From NCBI GenBank assembly GCA_021781455.1, contig JAJXWV010000041.1, forward strand, positions 75,484 through 139,483: DNA of 64,000 nt, written 5' to 3'. Position numbers and translations under genes: made by a program. This stretch comes from Acidobacteriota bacterium. GTDB taxonomy: Bacteria > Acidobacteriota > Thermoanaerobaculia > Gp7-AA8. The notes beneath the pieces are model-generated. The model was given only the letters and a program-made list of their open reading frames with translations. It did no database searches and was not told the origin of the DNA. Below are positions 47,441-56,183 of this stretch, piece by piece; within the stretch, counting starts at the first letter, position 1; the number at the start of each line of letters is the position of its first letter.

Positions 47441-48106
47441 TCACCAGCTGATCGTCCACTCGCATTCCGGGGCGTGCTCGGCCATACACCGGGTGTGGAT
47501 GACCGTCGGCGATACCCCCGTCATTTCGGCGATCTGCTCGATCCAGCCGGTCACTCGTGCGCACATGACCGGCTGCGGCGAGGGAAAGTCCGTCAGCCGG
47601 ATCACGGCGGACGTCGGCGTCTTCTGGTCGGCCGACATCCGCCCGGCGCTGTTCATCGTCGACCACATGGCGGTCGCCTTTCCGAGGACCACGTTCGTGC
47701 TGAGGACGCGGACGAAGACCCGGTACACGCCCTCCACGCCAGCCTTCGCCGAGAAGCGTCCTGCCCGTCGCGCGAACTGCGGCACCGGTTCACCGGCGGC
47801 ACTTGCAGCCTGGATAGTCAACGCGTTGAGCAGCGACATGGGATAGGTATTGGTGGCGAGGATCAGGCGCTTCGAGAGATCGTTGCGGTACGGCTGCGGC
47901 GCAGCCTGCAGAAGAGCCATGACTTTCTCGGGAGGCAGTGCCTGATCGAGAAACTTGAGGAAGCTGATGACTGTCTGCCCCTTCACGGACACTTCATCCG
48001 GCATGCGAGGCCTCTCGATCAAACCGTGAGTATGTTGGACCAGCTGCGATTTTACTCGCGCTGGAGCGCCGAATGTGGAGCGATAAGGATGATGGATGAA
48101 GCTCAT
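47441..48106 (-). CDS. Hypothetical protein
   Basis: 221-aa ORF convergent with the preceding gene. No motif recognised with confidence. C-terminal Cys/His cluster HTRCMAEHAPECEW. Confidence 0.4.
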   Translation of the reverse strand: MSFIHHPYRSTFGAPARVKSQLVQHTHGLIERPRMPDEVSVKGQTVISFLKFLDQALPPEKVMALLQAAPQPYRNDLSKRLILATNTYPMSLLNALTIQAASAAGEPVPQFARRAGRFSAKAGVEGVYRVFVRVLSTNVVLGKATAMWSTMNSAGRMSADQKTPTSAVIRLTDFPSPQPVMCARVTGWIEQIAEMTGVSPTVIHTRCMAEHAPECEWTISW

Positions 48107-48245
48107 CGCAGCGCGACTGGGCAGCCCTCATCCCTCAGACCTCATCCCTCGACATGGTCACTTATAATGCCGCCCGCACGAACCGGGGGGCGCGTGCTTC
48201 CTGCCTGTCACCTCGGCTCGCCGTCTCTGAACGCGGAGGTATTCC

Positions 48246-49646
48246 TTGGCAGACCAGCAATTCGATGTCGTCATCATCGGCAGCGGGCCCGGCGGATACG
48301 TCGGCGCCATCCGCGCCGGGCAGCTCGGCCTCAAAGTGGCCGTCGTCGAGAAGGATCCGTTCGTCGGCGGAACGTGCACCCACCGCGGCTGCATCCCCAC
48401 GAAAGCGCTCCTCGAGAACGCGGACATCTGGTCGAAGATCCAGAAGTCGAAGGAGTTCGGCATCACCGTCGGCGACGCCCATCTCGACTTCGCGGCAGGC
48501 CAGGAGCGCAAGCAGAGCGTCGTCGACAAGAGCGCGAAGGGAATCGAGTTCCTGTTCAAGAAGAACAAGGTCGAGCGCCTGACCGGGTTCGGCCGCGTGG
48601 TCTCACCGGGCATCGTCGAGGTCAAGGGCGCCGACGGAGCGGTGCAGCGCCTGCAGACGAAGGACATCATCCTGGCGATGGGCTCGACTCCCCGCGATCT
48701 TCCCCACATCAAGGCCGACGGAAAGCGCATCCTCAATTCCGATCACATCCTCAAGATCGGCGACGTTCCGAAGTCGATGCTGGTCATCGGCGCCGGAGCC
48801 GTGGGATGCGAGTTCGCCTCGATCTTCGCGCGCTTCGGGACGAAGGTCACCATCGTCGAAGTCCTGCCGCAGCTGCTCCCCATCGAAGACGAGGAGATTT
48901 CGAAGGAGTTCACGCGGCTGTTCAAGAAGAAAGGCATCGACGTCTACACAGACGCGAAAGTCGAGTCTGCAGAAGTGCACGACAACGGGGTTCGTTGTGT
49001 GGTCTCCGCCAAAGGCAAGCAGCTGACGTTCGACGTCGAAGTCGTCCTTTCCGCGACCGGACGCCGCGCCGTCACGGAGAATTGCGGCCTTGAAGCCGCC
49101 GGCGTGAAGGTCGAGCGCGGATTCGTGCAGGTCGACGAGCTCATGCGCACCGGCGTGGCCGGCATCTACGCCATCGGCGACATCGTCCCCACTCCGGCCC
49201 TCGCCCACTGCGCCTCGGCCGAAGGGATTCTCGTCGTCGAGCACATCAAGGGCCTCGAGGTCCGGCCGCTCAACTACGACCACATTCCGAATTGCACCTA
49301 CACGGACCCGGAAGTCGCTTCGGTCGGCCTCACTGAGAAGAAGGCCCGCGAGCGCGGGTACGACGTGAAAATCGGCAAGTTCCCCTTCACCGCCAGCTCG
49401 AAGGCCCGCATTCTCGGCGACGCGAACGGCCTGGTGAAGTACGTCTGCGACGCCAAATACGACGAAATCCTCGGCGTCCACATCGTCGGCCCGCATGCCA
49501 CCGAGCTCATCGCTGAGGCGTGTGTCGCGCTCGAGCTGGAAGCGACGAGTGAATCGATCGCCCGGACCGTCCATGCTCATCCGACACTCTCCGAGGCCAT
49601 GATGGAAGCGGCCGAAGATGTGCAGGGACACGCTATTCACATCTAA
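48246..49646 (+). CDS. lpdA: Dihydrolipoyl dehydrogenase
   Basis: FDVVIIGSGPGGYVGAIRAGQLG, redox-active disulfide GGTCTHRGCIPTKAL, NAD-binding VIGAGAVGCEFA, C-terminal HAHPTLSEA. Confidence 0.95.
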   Translation: MADQQFDVVIIGSGPGGYVGAIRAGQLGLKVAVVEKDPFVGGTCTHRGCIPTKALLENADIWSKIQKSKEFGITVGDAHLDFAAGQERKQSVVDKSAKGIEFLFKKNKVERLTGFGRVVSPGIVEVKGADGAVQRLQTKDIILAMGSTPRDLPHIKADGKRILNSDHILKIGDVPKSMLVIGAGAVGCEFASIFARFGTKVTIVEVLPQLLPIEDEEISKEFTRLFKKKGIDVYTDAKVESAEVHDNGVRCVVSAKGKQLTFDVEVVLSATGRRAVTENCGLEAAGVKVERGFVQVDELMRTGVAGIYAIGDIVPTPALAHCASAEGILVVEHIKGLEVRPLNYDHIPNCTYTDPEVASVGLTEKKARERGYDVKIGKFPFTASSKARILGDANGLVKYVCDAKYDEILGVHIVGPHATELIAEACVALELEATSESIARTVHAHPTLSEAMMEAAEDVQGHAIHI

Positions 49647-49767
49647 GAGTGCTGAGTACTGAGTGCTGAGTACTGAGTGGCGAGTACTGAGTGGCGAGTA
49701 CTGAGTGCTGAGTGGCGACGCCGCCGCTCGGCATTGACTCAGTACTCAGCACTCAGTACTCAGCACT
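49647..49767. repeat. Family A inverted heptamer array, copy A6 (long left arm with GAGTGGC variants)
   Basis: gagtgctgagtactgagtgctgagtactgagtggcgagtactgagtggcgagtactgagtgctgagtggc gacgccgccgctcggcattga ctcagtactcagcactcagtactcagcact. Confidence 0.85.
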
Positions 49768-49772
49768 TCGCG

Positions 49773-50186
49773 ATGACAGAACAGACGACGAGCCCACACG
49801 TCGACACACGGGGCCTGACGCGCGATCAGCTTCTGCAGATCGAGTACTACCTCCGTCTGACGCGTGCGCTGGAGGAGCGGCTGGTGGCGCTGTTCCGGCA
49901 GTCGAAGGTGATCGGAGGCCTCTATCGCTCCCTCGGGCAGGAGGGCGAGTCCGTGGCCGCCGCCTATGCGCTCGATTACAAGCAGGGCGACGTCGTGCAG
50001 CCGCTGATCCGCAACATGGGCGCGATCCTCGTGGCGGGTGCAAGACCTCTGGACATCGTGCGGCAGTACATGGCCAAGGGCGACTCGCCGACTCGCGGGC
50101 GCGAGCTGAACATCCATTTCGGACATCCGGCGCGGGACGGATTCATCGGCCAGATCTCGATGCTCTTGATCAGTGCCGATCACTGA
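49773..50186 (+). pseudogene. Truncated 2-oxoacid dehydrogenase E1 component alpha subunit. Only the N-terminal ~137 codons remain. The 3' part and the E1 beta gene are absent.
   Basis: LTRDQLLQIEYYLRLTRALEERLVALFRQSKVIGGLYRSLGQEGESVAAAYAL...GDSPTRGRELNIHFG is collinear with the first third of PdhA/BkdA1. The frame stops at 50186, where family A copy A7 begins. The E2 gene follows 100 bp later. Confidence 0.7.
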
Positions 50187-50250
50187 GAGCTGAGCACGCG
50201 TCGAATGACTCGGTAACGACACTCAGTACTCAGCACTCAGCACTCAGCAC
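50184..50250. repeat. Family A heptamer array, copy A7 (weak left arm, right arm ctcagtactcagcactcagcactcagcact)
   Basis: ctgagagctgagcac gcgtcgaatgactcggtaacgaca ctcagtactcagcactcagcactcagcact. Confidence 0.75.
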
Positions 50251-50289
50251 TTCGATTGCATATGCTTCTTGTCCTGCAGGAGTGAGCAA

Positions 50290-51723
50290 ATGGCCATAGA
50301 TGTCGTAATGCCCCAGATGGGCGAATCGATCGCCGAAGGAACCGTCTCGCGCTGGCTGAAGAAGCCGGGAGACAAAGTCGATCGCGACGAGCCGCTGCTC
50401 GAGATCTCGACCGACAAGGTCGACACCGAGATCCCCTCGCCCGCCGCCGGGACGCTGGCCGAGGTGCTGGTGCAGGAAGGGCAGACGGTGCCGGTGAACT
50501 CGGTCGTGGCGCGGATCGCCGCGGAAGGCGAGGCGACGGCCCCGGCGCCGAAGCCCGCCTCCGCCCCCCAACCCGCCCCACCCGCCCCCGCCGCCGCTCC
50601 GCCCCGCCCGCAACCAGCGCCGCCGCAGCCCAGCCAGGCGATCCGACAGGAAGTGCGTCAGGAGGCGTTCGCGGCCGCGGCGACTCCGAAGCCCGAGATG
50701 CGCACGCCGCCGCCTCCCACGCCGGCGATTGCGGCGACCGAACCCGGCGAAGACGAGAACGTCACCTCACTCGACGAGCGGCGGAGGACCAGGTCGTCGC
50801 CGCTGGTGCGCAAGATTGCCCAGGAGAACAACGTCGACGTCTCCCAGCTGCATGGCACCGGCGTCTCGGGCCGCGTCACGAAGAACGACATCCTCGACTT
50901 CCTGCAGCAGCCGCGTTCCGCCCAACCAGCCGCCGCAGCTCAGCAGTTGGCGCCGCAGCCTCAGCCGATCGCGCCGGCGCAGCGCGTGCCCGAGCGCGTT
51001 CCCGCGCCGCAGTTCGCCCCCGGGGAAAGCGTTCGCATCGAGCCGCTCTCGGTGATGCGCAAGAAGATCGCCCAGCACATGACGCTTTCGAAGCAGACCT
51101 CGGCGCACGTCACCACGGTGTTCGAATACGACTTCACCGCCATCGAGAAGCTCCGCCGGCAGCACAAGCAGAGCTACGCCGAGCGAGGCGTGAAGCTGAC
51201 CTACCTGCCGTTCATCGTCGACGCCGTGATCGCCGGTCTGCGCCAGTTCCCGATCATCAACGCTTCGATGGACGAGAACAGCATCATCTACCACCGCGAG
51301 CTGAACATCGGGATCGCCGTGGCGCTCGACTGGGGACTCATCGTCCCGGTCGTGAAGCACGCCGACGAGAAGAACATCCTCGGCCTGGCCCGCGCTATCA
51401 GCGATCTCGGTGAGCGGGCGCGCACCAAGAAGCTTTCGCCCGATGAGGTGCAGGGCGGCACGTTCACCATCACGAATCCTGGCATTTTCGGCGGGCTGTT
51501 CGGAACTCCGATCATCAATCAGCCGCAGGTGGCCATCCTCGGCGTCGGTGGCGTGAAGAAGCGGCCGGTGGTCGTGGAGACCGACGACGGTGATTCCATC
51601 GCCATCCATTCGATGTGCATCATGTCCCTGACTTTCGACCATCGCCTGATCGACGGCGCCGTGGCTGACCAGTTCATGGCCTACCTCCGCGACATCCTCG
51701 AAGGCGGCCAGTTCTCGATGTGA
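50290..51723 (+). CDS. Dihydrolipoamide acyltransferase (E2) of a 2-oxoacid dehydrogenase complex
   Basis: Lipoyl domain EISTDKVDTEIPSP (lipoyl-Lys), a Pro/Ala linker, a peripheral subunit-binding domain (SPLVRKIAQENNVDVSQLHGTGVSGRVTKNDI), and the catalytic domain with DHRLIDGA. Confidence 0.95.
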   Translation: MAIDVVMPQMGESIAEGTVSRWLKKPGDKVDRDEPLLEISTDKVDTEIPSPAAGTLAEVLVQEGQTVPVNSVVARIAAEGEATAPAPKPASAPQPAPPAPAAAPPRPQPAPPQPSQAIRQEVRQEAFAAAATPKPEMRTPPPPTPAIAATEPGEDENVTSLDERRRTRSSPLVRKIAQENNVDVSQLHGTGVSGRVTKNDILDFLQQPRSAQPAAAAQQLAPQPQPIAPAQRVPERVPAPQFAPGESVRIEPLSVMRKKIAQHMTLSKQTSAHVTTVFEYDFTAIEKLRRQHKQSYAERGVKLTYLPFIVDAVIAGLRQFPIINASMDENSIIYHRELNIGIAVALDWGLIVPVVKHADEKNILGLARAISDLGERARTKKLSPDEVQGGTFTITNPGIFGGLFGTPIINQPQVAILGVGGVKKRPVVVETDDGDSIAIHSMCIMSLTFDHRLIDGAVADQFMAYLRDILEGGQFSM

Positions 51724-51786
51724 CCAAGTGTCATTCTGACTTCTGACGGGAATGCTCGCCTCTCCTCTCTCCTTAACCCCTTTGCC

Positions 51787-52944
51787 ATGCGCGTTTGCGA
51801 GCTCCACAAGCTTCACCTCGTCACTTACGAGAATGGGATGAAGCTGCAGCAGAAGCTCGTCGAGCTGCGTCAGACCGAGCAGATCCCCGATCAGCTGCTG
51901 CTCCTCGAGCATCCGCCGGTGATCACGCTCGGCCGTGGCGGCAACGCTGCGAACCTGCTCGCGAGCGGCGAGCGGCTGCGAGCCGAACGCGTCCGCTTTT
52001 TCGAGACCACGCGCGGTGGCGACATCACCTACCACGGCCCCGGCCAGGTCGTCGGATATCCGATCATCCACCTCGGCGAAGGCAATCGCGACGTTCGCAA
52101 GTACGTCACCAAGCTCGAGGAAGTGCTGATCCGAACCGTGGCGCACTACGGCATCACCGCCGCACGCGTGGAGGGGAAGCGCGGCATCTGGGTCGGCAAC
52201 GACAAGATCGCCGCGATCGGCGTGCGCATCGCACGATGGGTGACCTCGCACGGTTTCGCCCTCAACGTCGGCACCAATCTCGATCACTTCCGTCTGATCA
52301 CGCCGTGCGGCCTGCACGGCACCGGCGTCACTTCGATCGAGCGCGAGATCGGACGGACCATTCCAATCGAGGAAGTCCGGGATCTCCTGGCTGCAAAGTT
52401 CGCCGAGGTCTTCGAGCGGGAGATGGTCCCGCGGCCGGAGAACATCCGGCTGATCAAGATCGTGCTGCACGACGCCGGCAATCGCGTGCTGCTACTGCAT
52501 CGCAAGCCGGAACGGGGCAATTTCTGGCAACCCATCACCGGGGCAATCGAGAAGGATGAGGCGCCGCTCGAGGCCGCCCGCCGCGAGCTTCTCGAAGAGA
52601 CGGGCACGGCCGGCGAGCCGCGGCCGATGGGCATCACCCAGTCGTTTCTGATCGAGTCGACGTTCCTCTCCTCGCGGCTCGGTGCTCTCGTCATCGCCAG
52701 CGAGGTCGGCTTCGAGATGCCCGTCGACTCTTCGATTCCGATCCGCATCGATCCCGAGGAGCATGACGGCCACGGCTGGTTCACCTTCGGCGAGGCCTAC
52801 GAGAAGATCCGCTGGACCGACGACCGTGAAGCGCTCGAGGAGCTGGAAACGCGGTTGTGCGGCCCCGCGATGGCACAGTTCCGCGATGACGACGAAGAAG
52901 AAACCGCGCAACCGCGGAGCCGCGGAACCGCGCAACCAGTATGA
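51787..52944 (+). CDS. lipB: Octanoyltransferase LipB fused to a C-terminal Nudix hydrolase domain
   Basis: LipB part: HPPVITLGRGG, TTRGGDITYHGPGQVVGYPII, KIAAIGVRIARWVTSHGFALNV (with the catalytic Cys in PCGLHG). Nudix box: GAIEKDEAPLEAARRELLEETG (Gx5Ex7REUxEExGU) at residues about 250-272. The C-terminal tail ETAQPRSRGTAQPV is a family B octamer array translated. Confidence 0.8.
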   Translation: MRVCELHKLHLVTYENGMKLQQKLVELRQTEQIPDQLLLLEHPPVITLGRGGNAANLLASGERLRAERVRFFETTRGGDITYHGPGQVVGYPIIHLGEGNRDVRKYVTKLEEVLIRTVAHYGITAARVEGKRGIWVGNDKIAAIGVRIARWVTSHGFALNVGTNLDHFRLITPCGLHGTGVTSIEREIGRTIPIEEVRDLLAAKFAEVFEREMVPRPENIRLIKIVLHDAGNRVLLLHRKPERGNFWQPITGAIEKDEAPLEAARRELLEETGTAGEPRPMGITQSFLIESTFLSSRLGALVIASEVGFEMPVDSSIPIRIDPEEHDGHGWFTFGEAYEKIRWTDDREALEELETRLCGPAMAQFRDDDEEETAQPRSRGTAQPV

Positions 52945-53819
52945 GCACCGATCCCAAACCACTGAACCGCCGCGCCGGCATCCGCCCGGAGTGGCTGAAG
53001 ATCCGCGTTCCCGGCGATCTCGATCAGCTTCCGGTGTCGAAGCTGATGAGCGACCTGGCCCTCAACACCGTCTGCCAGGAAGCGCGTTGCCCTAACATCT
53101 TCGACTGCTGGAATGCCGGCACCGCCACCTTCATGGTCCTCGGCGAGATCTGCACGCGGCGCTGCACCTTCTGCGCGGTCGGCAAGGGCAAGCCGCTGAG
53201 GTCGGACCAGGATGAGCCGCGGCGGGTGGCCGAGGCCGTCGGCCGGATGGGAATCCGGCACGCGGTCATCACGATGGTCAATCGCGACGACATGCCGGAT
53301 GGCGGCGCCGGGCACGTCGCCAGAACGGTCCTGGCCGTCCGCGACGGCAGCGGTGCGACCGTCGAAGTTCTCGTTTCCGACCTGGAAGGCAATCGCGACG
53401 CCTTACGCGTCGTGCTCGCCTCCCGCCCGGAAGTGTTCGCGCACAACATCGAAACGGTTCCCCGGCTCTATCCCGCCGTAAGGCCGGTCGCGAAGTACGA
53501 GCGCTCGCTCGAAGTCCTGCGCTGGGCAGGCCAGGAACGCTATGAAGGCATGCTCACGAAGTCGAGCCTGATGCTCGGCCTCGGCGAAACCGAGCAGGAG
53601 ATCCTCGCCGTTGCCGCCGACCTGCGCAGCGCCGGCGTCGACGTCTTCACCATGGGCCAGTACCTCGCGCCCACCGGCAACCACCATCCGGTGCGCCGCT
53701 ACTGGTCCCCCCATGAGTTTGCCGAGCTGGGCAGGCGCGCACGCGAGCTCGGCTTCCATCACGTCGAATCCGCTCCGCTGGTGCGCAGTTCCTATATGGC
53801 GCACCGTGCGCTCGCTTGA
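52941..53819 (+). CDS. lipA: Lipoyl synthase
   Basis: Auxiliary cluster CQEARCPNIFDC, radical-SAM cluster CTRRCTFCAV. The ATG overlaps the lipB stop. Confidence 0.95.
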   Translation: MSTDPKPLNRRAGIRPEWLKIRVPGDLDQLPVSKLMSDLALNTVCQEARCPNIFDCWNAGTATFMVLGEICTRRCTFCAVGKGKPLRSDQDEPRRVAEAVGRMGIRHAVITMVNRDDMPDGGAGHVARTVLAVRDGSGATVEVLVSDLEGNRDALRVVLASRPEVFAHNIETVPRLYPAVRPVAKYERSLEVLRWAGQERYEGMLTKSSLMLGLGETEQEILAVAADLRSAGVDVFTMGQYLAPTGNHHPVRRYWSPHEFAELGRRARELGFHHVESAPLVRSSYMAHRALA

Positions 53820-53894
53820 GTCGGTTCCGCCCTGATCCCTCGCCGCTCACGCGGCTCGGGATAAATCCGAAAAGTGCCGTAAAATCGCCCGCCA

Positions 53895-54173
53895 ATGCCG
53901 CGCGTCACATTCGTGGATGAGCAGAAAGCGGCAGAGTTTCCCGCCGGAAAGACCATCCTGTCCTGCGCCGGAGAAATGGGCGTACAAGTCAGTCACGTCT
54001 GCGGCGGAGACGGCGCGTGCGGGACTTGCAGGATCGAAGTCGTTGTGGGTTGGGACAACCTCACGCCGCCGACGCCCGATGAGACATACAAAGAGCTCGA
54101 GCCACCTCACCGCCTCTCCTGCCAGTCGAAACTGGTCGGGGACGTGGTGGTCAAGGTGGCCAAGATTGATTGA
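53895..54173 (+). CDS. 2Fe-2S ferredoxin
   Basis: CGGDGACGTC...C spacing of plant/adrenodoxin-type [2Fe-2S] ferredoxins. 92 aa. Confidence 0.75.
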   Translation: MPRVTFVDEQKAAEFPAGKTILSCAGEMGVQVSHVCGGDGACGTCRIEVVVGWDNLTPPTPDETYKELEPPHRLSCQSKLVGDVVVKVAKID

Positions 54174-54238
54174 GACCAGAGACCGCAGACCACAGACCGC
54201 AGGATCCACTGCGGTCCGTGGTCTGTGGTCTGCGGTCC
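54173..54238. repeat. Family E inverted heptamer array (GACCRCA x4, spacer, TGYGGTC x4)
   Basis: gagaccagagaccgcagaccacagaccgcag gatccac tgcggtccgtggtctgtggtctgcggtc. Confidence 0.85.
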
Positions 54239-54254
54239 ACAAAGGAGTGAACGA

Positions 54255-54764
54255 ATGACCGCAGTGGCATCGACCCCGACCGCCTTACTCGACACGCAGC
54301 AGCTCAGCCTTCTGATGCAGTACACGATCGAGGCCTACAAGATCTTCCAGAAATTCGCCGAAAACCTGCCCAACCCGATGAGCGCGGCGATGTTCAAGGA
54401 CTTCGCCGTGGACGAGCGCCTCGACCGCGACCTGCTCGAAGCGAAGATCAGCTCCGTCGGCAGCCGCGTGCGCACCGCACTCGGCGCCGATCTGCAGTTC
54501 CAGGAAGTGCTGGAAGGCGACCTCTCCTATCGGGAGTCGGCCGAGTTTCTGATCGCCCGCGAAAGGACCATGCAGCGCCGTCTCGAGGAGCTCAGCCGCA
54601 ACGCGGCGGATGCGGACCACAACCTGCTGATCTTCTTCATCGCCGTGAAGCGCTCGCACATCGTCGAGCTCGAGCGTGAGCTGGCGCTGATCCGCAACGA
54701 CCCCGAGTGGTGGCGGCGCGAAGACGCCGAAACGCGCATCGTCCACGGCTCCGCCGGCCGATGA
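54255..54764 (+). CDS. Hypothetical helical protein
   Basis: 170-aa ORF, MTAVASTPTALLDTQQLSLLMQYTIEAYKIFQKF.... Predicted all-alpha. Codon usage is consistent with the host. Confidence 0.45.
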   Translation: MTAVASTPTALLDTQQLSLLMQYTIEAYKIFQKFAENLPNPMSAAMFKDFAVDERLDRDLLEAKISSVGSRVRTALGADLQFQEVLEGDLSYRESAEFLIARERTMQRRLEELSRNAADADHNLLIFFIAVKRSHIVELERELALIRNDPEWWRREDAETRIVHGSAGR

Positions 54765-55048
54765 ACCTCTCCCTCTCCCCCGCGGCAGCCGCGCACCTTC
54801 CCGGCGATCTGGAAGGGCGGCTGCTGCGCATCGCCTTCACCACCGGCTGCGGCGGCAGCGGCTATCGCCTTGGCTACGCCGACGAGCCGGTCGAAGGCGA
54901 CGAGATCGTGAGTGTGGACGGCATTCGAGTGGCACTCGACAGCATGGCCGTCTCGAAGCTCGACGGCGCGGTCATCGACTACGACGCGGAAGAGGACGGC
55001 TATCTTCTGGAGCATCCCGATGCCGTGAGCGTCATCTGGTGCGGCTGA
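54761..55048 (+). CDS. HesB/IscA-family Fe-S cluster insertion protein
   Basis: LLRIAFTTGCGGSGYRL...VDGIRVALD...IDYD, the A-type carrier fold. The terminal ...CG lacks the usual second Cys pair, so it may be a variant. Confidence 0.6.
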   Translation: MNLSLSPAAAAHLPGDLEGRLLRIAFTTGCGGSGYRLGYADEPVEGDEIVSVDGIRVALDSMAVSKLDGAVIDYDAEEDGYLLEHPDAVSVIWCG

Positions 55049-55060
55049 TCGCTTCTTCAA

Positions 55061-55125
55061 CCACAGAGGACACAGAGAGCACAGAGTGAAGAAGCGTCTC
55101 TGTACTCTCTGTGTCCTCTGTGGTG
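55061..55125. repeat. Family D inverted array (CACAGAG-cored 9-mers)
   Basis: ccacagaggacacagagagcacagag tgaagaagcgt ctctgtactctctgtgtcctctgtgg. Confidence 0.85.
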
Positions 55126-55177
55126 AAAAGAAAACGGCGGCCTTCGCCGCCGTTCAAACAAAGACACTCTTTGCGAC

Positions 55178-56183
<1,006 letters not shown>

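What the first reader, a model, noticed from the sequence alone, without database searches (positions are those of the whole stretch)
51787..52944. LipB octanoyltransferase fused to a Nudix hydrolase domain
Residues about 1-215 are a complete LipB (HPPVITLGRGG, GDITYHGPGQ, catalytic Cys in PCGLHG). Residues about 235-385 are a Nudix domain with an intact Nudix box (GAIEKDEAPLEAARRELLEETG). The ATG of lipA overlaps the stop.

Nudix enzymes hydrolyse nucleoside-diphosphate-X substrates, including CoA and acyl-CoA. A fusion to the octanoyl-ACP:protein transferase suggests coupling of lipoate assembly to CoA/acyl-CoA turnover or to 'sanitising' a thioester by-product. I am not aware of a characterised LipB-Nudix fusion.
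Basis: partly seen in the sequence, partly recalled or inferred. Interest (0 to 1): 0.55.

Follow-up and report, generated by a model that had tools for sequence, protein, structure and literature searches.

The report
LipB fused to NudB-like hydrolase
One gene really does join the enzyme that starts lipoic-acid attachment (LipB) to a second, apparently active Nudix hydrolase, but that hydrolase resembles the folate-pathway enzyme NudB rather than a coenzyme-A hydrolase. The fusion is widespread in two bacterial phyla and I found no paper that studies it.

Summary
ORF 51787-52944 (+) encodes 385 aa: a complete LipB (aa 1-212), a 17-residue junction, a Nudix domain (aa ~222-358) with an intact Nudix box, and a disordered acidic tail. 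Its stop overlaps the lipA start (ATGA).

It is not an artefact. The identical protein occurs on 10 contigs from independent assemblies. About 236 distinct protein clusters carry both domains, named as Thermoanaerobaculia, Blastocatellia, Myxococcaceae and Archangium.

The CoA/acyl-CoA idea is not supported. No CoA-type motif is present (0 of 107 fusions). The best family model, best sequence-matched named structure and best Nudix fold match are all E. coli NudB, the dihydroneopterin-triphosphate diphosphatase. The closest unfused genomic relatives checked lie in aspS-nudix-yebC-ruvC, which I recall as the E. coli nudB neighbourhood. One relative is fused to FolP.

The domain is still not a certified NudB. 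It scores 62.7 bits against a cutoff of 103, the Tyr91-equivalent is lost, and no folate gene lies nearby in seven contexts.

The constant linker length and AlphaFold pTM of 0.89-0.92 suggest a rigid two-domain enzyme.

Best reading: a bifunctional LipB plus NudB-type pyrophosphohydrolase whose physiological substrate is unproven. It is a new variant of known kinds, of moderate interest.

The parts
51787..52944 (+). lipB::nudix fusion ORF, 385 aa plus stop
   Evidence: The identical protein is found on 10 independent contigs.
51787..52422 (+). LipB octanoyltransferase domain (aa 1-212)
   Evidence: Pfam LplA-B_cat at aa 14-206. NF010925 at 201 bits, cutoff 155. Foldseek match to 2qhs with TMt 0.95 and 45% identity, and to 1w66 with TMt 0.88.
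52204..52206 (+). Codon for Lys140, the predicted catalytic-dyad lysine of LipB
   Evidence: Invariant in 107 fusions. Its correspondence to E. coli K135 comes from my own knowledge.
52306..52308 (+). Codon for Cys174 (in PCG), the predicted acyl-thioester cysteine of LipB
   Evidence: P173, C174 and G175 are invariant in 107 fusions. Its correspondence to E. coli C169 comes from my own knowledge.
52423..52449 (+). Inter-domain junction (aa 213-221): variable in sequence, fixed in length, predicted as a beta-strand
   Evidence: The segment aa 206-222 is exactly 17 residues in 106 of 107 fusions, at only 21% mean identity. The model has a strand at aa 211-215 with high pLDDT.
52450..52860 (+). 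NudB-like Nudix hydrolase domain (aa 222-358)
   Evidence: Pfam NUDIX at aa 225-351. Best NCBIfam match is NF006961 (NudB) at 62.7 bits, below its cutoff of 103. Best Nudix fold match is E. coli NudB (5u7e, 2o5w, 2o1c), TMt 0.78-0.83, rmsd about 1.9 A.
52540..52608 (+). Nudix box G252-x5-E258-x7-R266-E267-L-x-E270-E271-x-G273-T274
   Evidence: G252, E258, R266, E267, E270 and E271 are invariant and G273 is at least 90% conserved in 107 fusions.
52861..52941 (+). Variable acidic C-terminal tail (aa 359-385), low-confidence in the model
   Evidence: pLDDT is below 50 at aa 373-384. The tail is absent or variable in homologues, 0-55 residues long.
52941..53819 (+). lipA lipoyl synthase; its start overlaps the fusion's stop (ATGA)
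   Evidence: TIGR00510 at 334.9 bits, cutoff 310.25. The overlap is visible.
50269..51723 (+). 2-oxoacid dehydrogenase E2 (lipoyl-domain protein, a LipB substrate), 63 nt upstream
   Evidence: TIGR02927 at 425.5 bits, cutoff 423.45. Pfam Biotin_lipoyl, E3_binding and 2-oxoacid_dh.
48246..49646 (+). lpdA dihydrolipoyl dehydrogenase (E3), first gene of the co-directional cluster
   Evidence: TIGR01350 at 569.5 bits.
53895..55048 (+). Genes downstream of lipA: 2Fe-2S ferredoxin (53895-54173), unknown 169 aa (54255-54764) and A-type Fe-S carrier (54761-55048)
   Evidence: The same set follows lipA in a genome whose fusion is about 75% identical. No + strand terminator-like site was found between 47800 and 55300.

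Best explanation
The gene encodes one rigid two-domain enzyme.

The N-terminal half is a canonical LipB. It would transfer octanoate from octanoyl-ACP to the lipoyl domains of E2 and H proteins through an acyl-Cys174 intermediate. The lipA gene that overlaps its stop would then insert the sulfur atoms.

The C-terminal half is a catalytically competent Nudix pyrophosphohydrolase of the NudB lineage. Its most likely reaction is release of pyrophosphate from a triphosphate substrate. [quoted passage not shown]

On this reading the fusion ties a NudB-type activity to the gene that starts lipoate assembly. It does not act on CoA thioesters.

How firm each step is:
- Shown: the fusion is real, both folds are present, both sets of catalytic residues are conserved, and the Nudix half has NudB affinity.
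- Inferred: both halves are active.
- Least certain: that dihydroneopterin triphosphate is the physiological substrate (about 0.35-0.4 on its own), and why the two halves are joined.
For: The fusion is real and old.
- The identical protein is on 10 independent contigs.
- About 236 distinct 90%-identity clusters have both Pfam domains.
- 28 of the 131 near-complete Nudix domains among the best 150 50%-identity representatives are attached to LipB, with Nudix identity down to 34%.

LipB half: it scores above the curated cutoffs, matches 2qhs with TMt 0.95, and C174 and K140 are invariant.

Nudix half looks active: the Nudix-box residues, the Glu117 equivalent (E325) and H326 are invariant in 107 fusions.

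NudB affinity:
- NF006961 is the best family at 62.7 bits; the next best scores 24 bits.
- E. coli NudB is the second-best sequence hit among solved structures and the best named one; the top hit, 3son, is an unnamed hypothetical Nudix hydrolase.
- NudB is the best Nudix fold match.
- All 10 nearest stand-alone relatives have NF006961 as their best family, and two pass its cutoff. IMG names two of them dATP pyrophosphohydrolase and DHNTP diphosphatase.
- Three of the closest unfused genome matches (L002, L003, L008) lie in aspS-nudix-(abhydrolase)-yebC-ruvC. That this matches the E. coli nudB neighbourhood is my own recollection.
- A relative in the same clade is fused to FolP, dihydropteroate synthase.
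- The NudB residues R29, F35, W36, Q37, T40, F81, E117 and H118 are essentially fully conserved in the fusions (residue roles from PMC13151061).

Rigid coupling: the junction is 17 residues in 106 of 107 fusions. AlphaFold2 gives pTM 0.89 with pLDDT 92.8 for the window protein, and pTM 0.92 with pLDDT 96.1 for a 41%-identical Myxococcales homologue.
Against: - The Nudix half does not reach the curated NudB cutoff (62.7 bits against 103).
- The Tyr91 equivalent is Tyr or Phe in all stand-alone relatives examined but is not conserved in the fusions, and the Arg90 loop is shortened. Substrate specificity may therefore have shifted.
- No folate gene lies next to the fusion in any of seven contexts. 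When a functional neighbour exists it is E2 or lipA.
- The fold match to NudB is only slightly better than to Ap4A hydrolases (TMt 0.78-0.83 against 0.72-0.79).
- Other members of this Nudix clade are fused to AhpC/TSA peroxiredoxins and other domains, so the clade is not tied only to folate.
- A fixed-length junction and a confidently predicted single-body model are unexpected for a fusion that serves only co-expression.
- I could not check whether genomes with the fusion lack another NudB.
Confidence: 0.45

Rival explanations
1. The Nudix half works inside the lipoylation pathway on a nucleotide-linked species. It would be physically coupled to LipB and would either supply a substrate or pre-empt damage. 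Two examples: cleaving octanoyl-CoA to octanoyl-4'-phosphopantetheine for LipB, or removing ADP-ribose-type adducts linked to lipoyl proteins.
For: - The fusion has persisted while the Nudix half diverged to as little as 29% pairwise identity.
- The junction has a constant length.
- pTM of 0.89-0.92 suggests a fixed interface.
- When the gene context is informative it follows lipoate genes, not folate genes.
- The specificity loop around the Tyr91 equivalent differs from stand-alone NudB-like proteins.
- There are precedents. A Nudix domain fused to a thiamin-pathway enzyme was found to be a pyrophosphatase (listed in PMC4921024; that it acts on damaged thiamin diphosphates is my recollection of the cited paper). 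Lipoylation-dependent ADP-ribosylation of GcvH-L has been described (PMC4518038, found and not read here; its content is from my own knowledge).
Against: - No candidate substrate is indicated by sequence.
- Neither a CoA-type nor an ADP-ribose-type signature is present.
- In Blastocatellia and Myxococcota the gene has no lipoate neighbours.
- I could not inspect the geometry of the predicted interface.
Confidence: 0.2
2. The Nudix half is a general house-cleaning enzyme, for example a (d)NTP, oxidised-nucleotide or Ap4A pyrophosphatase. It would have no specific link to folate or to lipoate, and the fusion would be a neutral accident kept by inheritance.
For: - E. coli NudB was first described as a dATP pyrophosphohydrolase and groups with Ap4A hydrolases in the Nudix clan phylogeny (PMC5389931).
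- Ap4A hydrolases are close fold matches.
- Relatives are fused to AhpC/TSA peroxiredoxins, and one LipB-Nudix protein also carries a hemerythrin domain, which hints at an oxidative-stress theme.
Against: - A neutral fusion would not be expected to keep a fixed-length junction and a confidently predicted single-body arrangement across two phyla.
- The NudB signature residues, including the pterin-stacking Phe81 equivalent, are invariant.
Confidence: 0.2
3. One reading: the Nudix half is a CoA/acyl-CoA diphosphatase that couples lipoate assembly to CoA thioester turnover.
For: Some Nudix enzymes hydrolyse CoA and acyl-CoA (own knowledge; CoA pyrophosphatases are listed in PMC5389931). As I recall, LipB can use octanoyl-CoA weakly in vitro.
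Against: - The CoA-type motif that ends in FPGG is absent in 107 of 107 fusions; all read x-x-T-G.
- No CoA-diphosphatase family matched at E <= 0.1.
- Every similarity measure points to NudB instead.
Confidence: 0.07
4. The Nudix half is a non-catalytic structural or ligand-sensing module that regulates LipB.
For: Non-catalytic Nudix domains occur in multidomain proteins (PMC5389931). The two domains are predicted to be rigidly coupled.
Against: All metal-binding and catalytic residues (E258, R266, E267, E270, E271, E325) are invariant in 107 fusions from two phyla. That is the pattern expected of an active hydrolase.
Confidence: 0.05
5. The fusion is an artefact: a frameshift or misassembly joined two separate genes.
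For: None found.
Against: - The same protein is found in independent assemblies.
- About 236 clusters of homologues at 41-85% identity keep the single reading frame.
- The junction is well modelled.
Confidence: 0.01

Closest known systems
LipB lipoyl(octanoyl) transferase (E. coli LipB; Mycobacterium tuberculosis 1W66; PDB 2QHS)
   Same: The N-terminal 212 residues pass the curated LipB models. They superpose on 2qhs and 1w66 with TMt 0.95 and 0.88 at 43-45% identity. The Cys/Lys dyad is kept. The gene sits beside lipA and an E2 gene.
   Different: Canonical LipB is a single-domain protein of about 210-230 aa. Here a Nudix domain of about 140 aa follows through a short junction of fixed length. 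No PDB entry covers both halves.
E. coli NudB, dihydroneopterin triphosphate diphosphatase (PDB 2O1C, 2O5W, 5U7E)
   Same: NudB is the best family model, the best named sequence match among solved structures and the best Nudix fold match. R29, F35, W36, Q37, T40, the Nudix box, F81, E117 and H118 are all conserved.
   Different: Identity is only 24-26%. The domain scores below the NCBIfam cutoff. Equivalents of Y91, R90, F84, S135, K4 and K7 are not conserved. It is fused to LipB rather than stand-alone, and it has neither folate neighbours nor aspS/yebC neighbours.
Nudix-FolP (dihydropteroate synthase) fusion proteins in the same Nudix clade (P0157 and its cluster)
   Same: They carry the same NudB-like Nudix type (35% identity to the window domain, E 5.5e-15) fused to a cofactor-biosynthesis enzyme.
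   Different: The partner is a folate enzyme and the Nudix domain is N-terminal. In the window protein the partner is a lipoate enzyme and the Nudix domain is C-terminal.
Nudix domains fused to vitamin-pathway enzymes, such as the Tnr3-type thiamin pathway/Nudix fusion
   Same: A Nudix pyrophosphatase is fused to a cofactor-pathway enzyme. In the thiamin case the fusion led to a functional discovery for that pathway (table in PMC4921024; that the discovery was hydrolysis of damaged thiamin diphosphates is my recollection).
   Different: The Nudix subfamily and the pathway differ. No damaged nucleotide-linked form of lipoate or octanoate is known that would play the same role.
CoA-type Nudix diphosphatases (NudL, PCD1, NUDT7 type)
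   Same: They share the Nudix fold and the Nudix box.
   Different: These enzymes have a CoA motif just upstream of the Nudix box that runs into it as FPGG (own knowledge). It is absent here in 107 of 107 fusions, and there is no HMM match.
Other fusions within lipoate metabolism, such as the bifunctional LplA-LipA protein (NCBIfam NF053790)
   Same: A lipoate-attachment enzyme is fused to a second enzyme, and the architecture is catalogued as its own type.
   Different: That fusion joins two lipoate-pathway enzymes. Here the partner belongs to another enzyme family, and no dedicated family model matched the two-domain protein.

Membership tests
LipB lipoyl(octanoyl) transferase | Scores above the curated family cutoffs | tested here: met
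   NF010925 scores 201 bits (cutoff 155) and TIGR00214 scores 165.5 bits (cutoff 83.55), both.
LipB lipoyl(octanoyl) transferase | LplA/LipB catalytic-domain fold without the LplA C-terminal accessory domain | tested here: met
   Pfam LplA-B_cat at aa 14-206. Foldseek matches 2qhs (TMt 0.95) and 1w66 (TMt 0.88). LplA entries align over only about 220 columns.
LipB lipoyl(octanoyl) transferase | Catalytic Cys (acyl-thioester) and Lys dyad | tested here: met
   C174 (in PCG) and K140 are invariant in 107 fusions. The mapping to E. coli C169 and K135 comes from my own knowledge.
LipB lipoyl(octanoyl) transferase | Octanoyl-ACP-dependent octanoylation of lipoyl domains | not testable with these tools
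   Needs an enzyme assay or complementation of a lipB mutant.
Nudix hydrolase superfamily | Nudix box GX5EX7REUXEEXGU | tested here: met
   G252-x5-E258-x7-R266-E267-L268-x-E270-E271-x-G273. The last position is Thr in the window instead of Ile, Leu or Val. The Gly, Glu and Arg positions are invariant in 107 fusions and G273 is at least 90% conserved.
Nudix hydrolase superfamily | Nudix alpha/beta/alpha fold | tested here: met
   Pfam NUDIX at 55.5 bits (cutoff 21.1). The model has high confidence and matches many Nudix structures.
NudB (dihydroneopterin triphosphate diphosphatase, NF006961) | Reaches the curated equivalog cutoff | tested here: not met
   62.7 bits against a cutoff of 103, although the match covers the whole domain and NF006961 is by far the best family.
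NudB (dihydroneopterin triphosphate diphosphatase, NF006961) | Residues that bind metal and dihydroneopterin triphosphate in the E. coli enzyme | tested here: inconclusive
   R29, Q37, T40, E56, E60, F81 and E117 equivalents are 100% conserved. Y91, R90, F84, S135, K4 and K7 equivalents are not. Y91 is Tyr or Phe in the stand-alone relatives but variable in the fusions (residue roles from PMC13151061).
NudB (dihydroneopterin triphosphate diphosphatase, NF006961) | Genomic association with folate genes, or the aspS-nudB-yebC neighbourhood | tested here: not met
   None was seen in seven contexts of the fusion. The unfused relatives L002, L003 and L008 do lie beside aspS, and L003 and L008 also beside yebC.
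NudB (dihydroneopterin triphosphate diphosphatase, NF006961) | Hydrolysis of dihydroneopterin triphosphate to the monophosphate plus pyrophosphate; a role in folate synthesis | not testable with these tools
   Needs an enzyme assay or complementation of E. coli lacking nudB.
CoA-type Nudix diphosphatase | CoA motif upstream of the Nudix box that runs into it as FPGG | tested here: not met
   The four residues that end at the first Gly of the Nudix box are PVTG, PITG, ILTG and the like in 107 of 107 fusions; none has PGG. The motif definition comes from my own knowledge.
CoA-type Nudix diphosphatase | Match to a CoA pyrophosphatase family model | tested here: not met
   No such model appears among the 16 NCBIfam hits at E <= 0.1.
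ADP-ribose / ADP-sugar Nudix diphosphatase | Match to NudE-type or ADP-ribose pyrophosphatase-type models | tested here: not met
   Only NudE at 17.3 bits against a cutoff of 169. ADP-ribose pyrophosphatase chains match only across the Nudix-box region.

The most novel reading that the evidence does not exclude
The NudB-like domain has been recruited into lipoylation itself. It would be rigidly docked on LipB and would hydrolyse a nucleotide-linked compound that feeds or protects the octanoyl-transfer step. Examples are converting an acyl-CoA into an acyl-phosphopantetheine donor, or clearing an ADP-ribose-type adduct connected with lipoyl proteins. That would add an unrecognised enzymatic step to lipoate assembly in Acidobacteriota and Myxococcota.
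Probability: 0.18. Interest if true: 0.7.

Novelty: new variant of a known kind. Interest (0 to 1): 0.42.

Why it matters
Lipoate assembly (LipB, then LipA) is regarded as a well-understood two-enzyme route. Here a conserved, probably rigid fusion of LipB to an apparently active NudB-type pyrophosphohydrolase is found in two soil and sediment phyla. It is filed in databases simply as 'LipB', so the second domain has gone unnoticed.

If the Nudix half is the dihydroneopterin-triphosphate diphosphatase, the fusion identifies a candidate for the folate-pathway step in lineages where that gene has not been assigned. It would also link two cofactors that the glycine cleavage system uses together.

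If the Nudix half instead acts on a lipoylation-related nucleotide compound, a new step in a classic pathway would be revealed.

Either outcome can be tested with simple complementation and substrate-panel experiments. For the scan, the practical lesson is that the CoA interpretation should be dropped.

Tried and rejected
1. **Genome survey failed.** Only one of its 75 loci (L009, a Myxococcaceae MAG) carries the fusion. Taxonomy therefore rests on source names.

2. **Tree unresolved.** A neighbour-joining tree of 131 Nudix domains has low resolution. The LipB-fused domains do not form a clean clade: 23 of 28 group together, mixed with stand-alone and FolP-fused members. Some of the 'stand-alone' ones are probably gene fragments. 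I draw no conclusion about one origin versus several.

3. **Few taxon names.** Cluster-member look-ups returned few organism names.

4. **Literature.** Four searches found no paper on the fusion. The fusion-survey paper and its held supplements do not list it.

5. **No model coordinates.** Coordinates and PAE of the models are not available to scripts. I could not measure the interface or the distance between the two active sites. Rigidity is inferred only from pTM and from the junction length. Both models used the same 107 sequences, so they are not fully independent.

6. **Internal start rejected.** Met213 could in principle allow separate translation of the Nudix half. I rejected this because Met213 is not conserved (Leu, Pro or Val in most homologues) and the GGGAG before it abuts the ATG.

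7. **Second copy in the window.** A search of the 64-kb window with my own HMMs found no other NudB-like or LipB gene.

8. **Signals.** The promoter and terminator scan found no sigma-70-like promoter and no + strand terminator in 47800-55300.
Full report
**Observation.** The window holds a single ORF at 51787..52944 on the + strand, 385 aa, starting with ATG. Pfam finds the LipB/LplA catalytic domain at aa 14-206 (E 1.5e-51) and a NUDIX domain at aa 225-351 (E 7.8e-15). NCBIfam places the N-terminal half above the curated LipB cutoffs: NF010925 at 201 bits against 155, and TIGR00214 at 165.5 against 83.55. The lipA start at 52941 overlaps the stop as ATGA, and lipA itself passes TIGR00510. 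The only correction is to the domain limits. The Nudix domain ends near aa 358, and aa 359-385 are a variable acidic tail that is modelled with low confidence.

**Not an artefact.** The identical 385-aa protein is called on 10 contigs from separate ENA, NCBI (GCA_027388875.1) and Logan assemblies, in the same gene order. All 120 best homologues of the window protein (70-85% identity) carry both Pfam domains in one chain. So do all 120 best hits of a profile built from diverged members. Together these make about 236 distinct 90%-identity clusters. In an exhaustive search of 50%-identity representatives with the Nudix half alone, 28 of the 131 near-complete Nudix domains among the best 150 hits are attached to LipB, and their Nudix identity to the query falls as low as 34%. 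Source names place the fusion in Acidobacteriota (Thermoanaerobaculia, Blastocatellia) and in Myxococcota (Myxococcales, Myxococcaceae, Archangium sp.). The closest named relatives of the window protein are Thermoanaerobaculia.

**The LipB half.** Across 107 diverse fusions the LipB hallmarks are invariant, including R76-G77-G78, the TYHGPGQ core (T81, H83, G84, Q87), K140 and P173-C174-G175. The AlphaFold2 model superposes on LipB structures 2qhs (TMt 0.95, 45% identity) and 1w66 (TMt 0.88). I regard this half as a canonical octanoyl-ACP:protein octanoyltransferase. Activity itself cannot be tested here.

**The Nudix half is NudB-like, not CoA-type.** Several lines of evidence agree.
- The best NCBIfam family is NF006961, dihydroneopterin triphosphate diphosphatase (NudB), at 62.7 bits over the whole domain. 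The next family scores 24 bits, and no CoA-diphosphatase model appears.
- Among solved structures the top sequence hit is an unnamed hypothetical Nudix hydrolase (3son). E. coli NudB is second and is the best named one.
- E. coli NudB (5u7e, 2o5w, 2o1c) is the best Nudix fold match, with TMt 0.78-0.83 and rmsd about 1.9 A. Ap4A hydrolases are only slightly behind.
- All ten nearest stand-alone relatives have NF006961 as their best family, and two pass its cutoff. IMG names two of them dATP pyrophosphohydrolase and DHNTP diphosphatase.
- Three of the closest unfused genome matches (L002, L003, L008) lie directly downstream of aspS, and in L003 and L008 yebC follows, then ruvC in L008. From my own knowledge this is the neighbourhood of E. 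coli nudB.
- One relative is a Nudix-FolP (dihydropteroate synthase) fusion.
- I mapped the fusions onto E. coli NudB. I recalled the NudB sequence from memory and checked it against the residue numbers in PMC13151061 and the segment shown. R29, Q37, T40, the Nudix box, F81, E117 and H118 are conserved in all 107 fusions, and F35 and W36 in 106 of 107.
- The CoA-type motif, which as I recall it ends in FPGG at the start of the Nudix box, is absent in 107 of 107 fusions.

**Why it is not simply 'NudB'.** The domain misses the curated cutoff. The Tyr91 equivalent is Tyr or Phe in every stand-alone relative examined but is not conserved in the fusions, and the adjacent Arg90 loop is shortened. 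In the E. coli model Tyr91 hydrogen-bonds a hydroxyl of dihydroneopterin triphosphate (PMC13151061). No folate gene lies next to the fusion in any of the seven contexts I read:
- In the window lineage the order is lpdA, an E1-alpha remnant, E2, lipB::nudix, lipA, ferredoxin, an unknown gene, and an A-type Fe-S carrier.
- In a genome whose fusion is about 75% identical, the order is E3, E1-alpha, E1-beta, E2, two inserted genes, then lipB::nudix, lipA and the same downstream genes.
- In another lineage the order is E1-alpha, E1-beta, E2, lipB::nudix, without lipA.
- In Blastocatellia and Myxococcota no lipoate or folate gene is adjacent.

So where the context is informative, it follows the LipB function.

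**Signs of physical coupling.** The two halves are joined by a segment whose sequence varies (21% mean identity) but whose length is fixed: aa 206-222 is 17 residues in 106 of 107 fusions. AlphaFold2 predicts a single confident body, with pLDDT 92.8 and pTM 0.89 for the window protein and a beta-strand at aa 211-215 that bridges the domains. For a 41%-identical Myxococcales homologue it gives pLDDT 96.1 and pTM 0.92. Both models used the same 107 sequences, so they are not fully independent. I could not read coordinates or PAE, so the relative position of the two active sites is unknown. Mean pairwise identity is 58% for the LipB half and 45% for the Nudix half. Both halves are therefore conserved, the Nudix half less strongly.

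**Mechanism, with likelihoods.** My best reading (overall 0.45) is a bifunctional enzyme. LipB octanoylates E2 and H proteins. The attached NudB-type domain releases pyrophosphate from a triphosphate substrate, most plausibly dihydroneopterin triphosphate. The separate likelihoods are:
- the fusion is real: about 0.99;
- LipB function: about 0.95;
- the Nudix half is an active NudB-lineage hydrolase: about 0.8;
- dihydroneopterin triphosphate is the physiological substrate: about 0.35-0.4.

The rivals are:
- a lipoylation-linked nucleotide substrate, 0.2. The fixed junction, the changed specificity loop and the lipoate-type context favour it, and there is a precedent of a Nudix domain fused to a thiamin-pathway enzyme (PMC4921024);
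- a general nucleotide or Ap4A house-cleaning enzyme, 0.2. NudB's own history (PMC5389931) and the AhpC/TSA fusions of relatives favour it;
- a non-catalytic module, 0.05, which the invariant catalytic residues contradict;
- an artefact, 0.01.

**Comparison with what is known, and novelty.** Each half belongs to a well-known family, and the proteins are already in public databases, labelled only 'lipoyl(octanoyl) transferase LipB'. I found no paper that describes or tests the fusion. No PDB entry covers both halves. NCBIfam has a dedicated model for an LplA-LipA fusion, but none for this architecture matched the protein. I class it as a new variant of a known kind. It is moderately interesting because it is widespread, appears structurally constrained and is easy to test. 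It does not bear on a long-standing open question.

**Limits.** I could not scan whole genomes for a second NudB or for the folate pathway. The domain tree is unresolved. Taxonomy rests on the names of metagenome-assembled genomes.

Noticed in passing
window 49647-50251 (ORF 49773-50186): The gene between lpdA and E2 is a 137-aa remnant of the E1-alpha subunit. It matches residues 2-127 of a 338-aa E1-alpha in a related 5.89-Mb genome at 85% identity. The rest of E1-alpha and all of E1-beta are missing from the 64-kb window. The same remnant is called in independent assemblies, so this 2-oxoacid dehydrogenase locus appears to have lost its E1.
   Followed up: yes
window 49647-49767 and 50220-50251: Arrays of the heptamer GAGTGCT/GAGTACT (about 10 copies) start right after the lpdA stop and are followed by their reverse complement. 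Together they form a very stable hairpin (-95.9 kcal/mol, z = -11.8). A third array of the same heptamer family (CACTCAG, 4.6 copies) lies just after the E1-alpha remnant, so repeats flank the apparent deletion. Their function is unknown.
   Followed up: partly
window 53895-55048: lipA is followed by a 2Fe-2S ferredoxin, an unknown 169-aa protein (a weak DUF2383 hit in a relative) and an A-type Fe-S carrier. The same set follows lipA in a genome whose fusion is about 75% identical. This would fit a dedicated supply or repair set for the Fe-S clusters of lipoyl synthase; that is inference only.
   Followed up: partly
proteins P0157, P0158, P0200, P0246, P0266, P0197, P0238, P0219 (no window coordinates): The same NudB-like Nudix clade occurs fused to FolP, to AhpC/TSA peroxiredoxins (three representatives), to GrpB, to a GT87 glycosyltransferase and to an alpha/beta hydrolase. 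One protein is a triple LipB-Nudix-hemerythrin fusion of 571 aa.
   Followed up: partly
L082 6988-9074; L086 5931-8062: In Myxococcota the fusion gene's start overlaps by 4 nt the end of a gene for a protein of about 340-357 aa with a ClpX-type zinc finger. A convergent trio (Lactamase_B_2, GTP cyclohydrolase II, MoeA) lies downstream. The arrangement is conserved between an Archangium MAG and another long contig.
   Followed up: no
L001 5001-5771: In Oceanirhabdus sp., the gene just upstream of the NudB-like Nudix gene encodes a protein with both an inorganic-pyrophosphatase-like region and a second NUDIX domain.
   Followed up: no
protein P0270 (364 aa), Nudix half: About 30 residues in the middle of its Nudix domain align poorly and read like an out-of-frame stretch, before the sequence returns to the family pattern. 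This could be a local double frameshift or a sequencing error in that contig.
   Followed up: no
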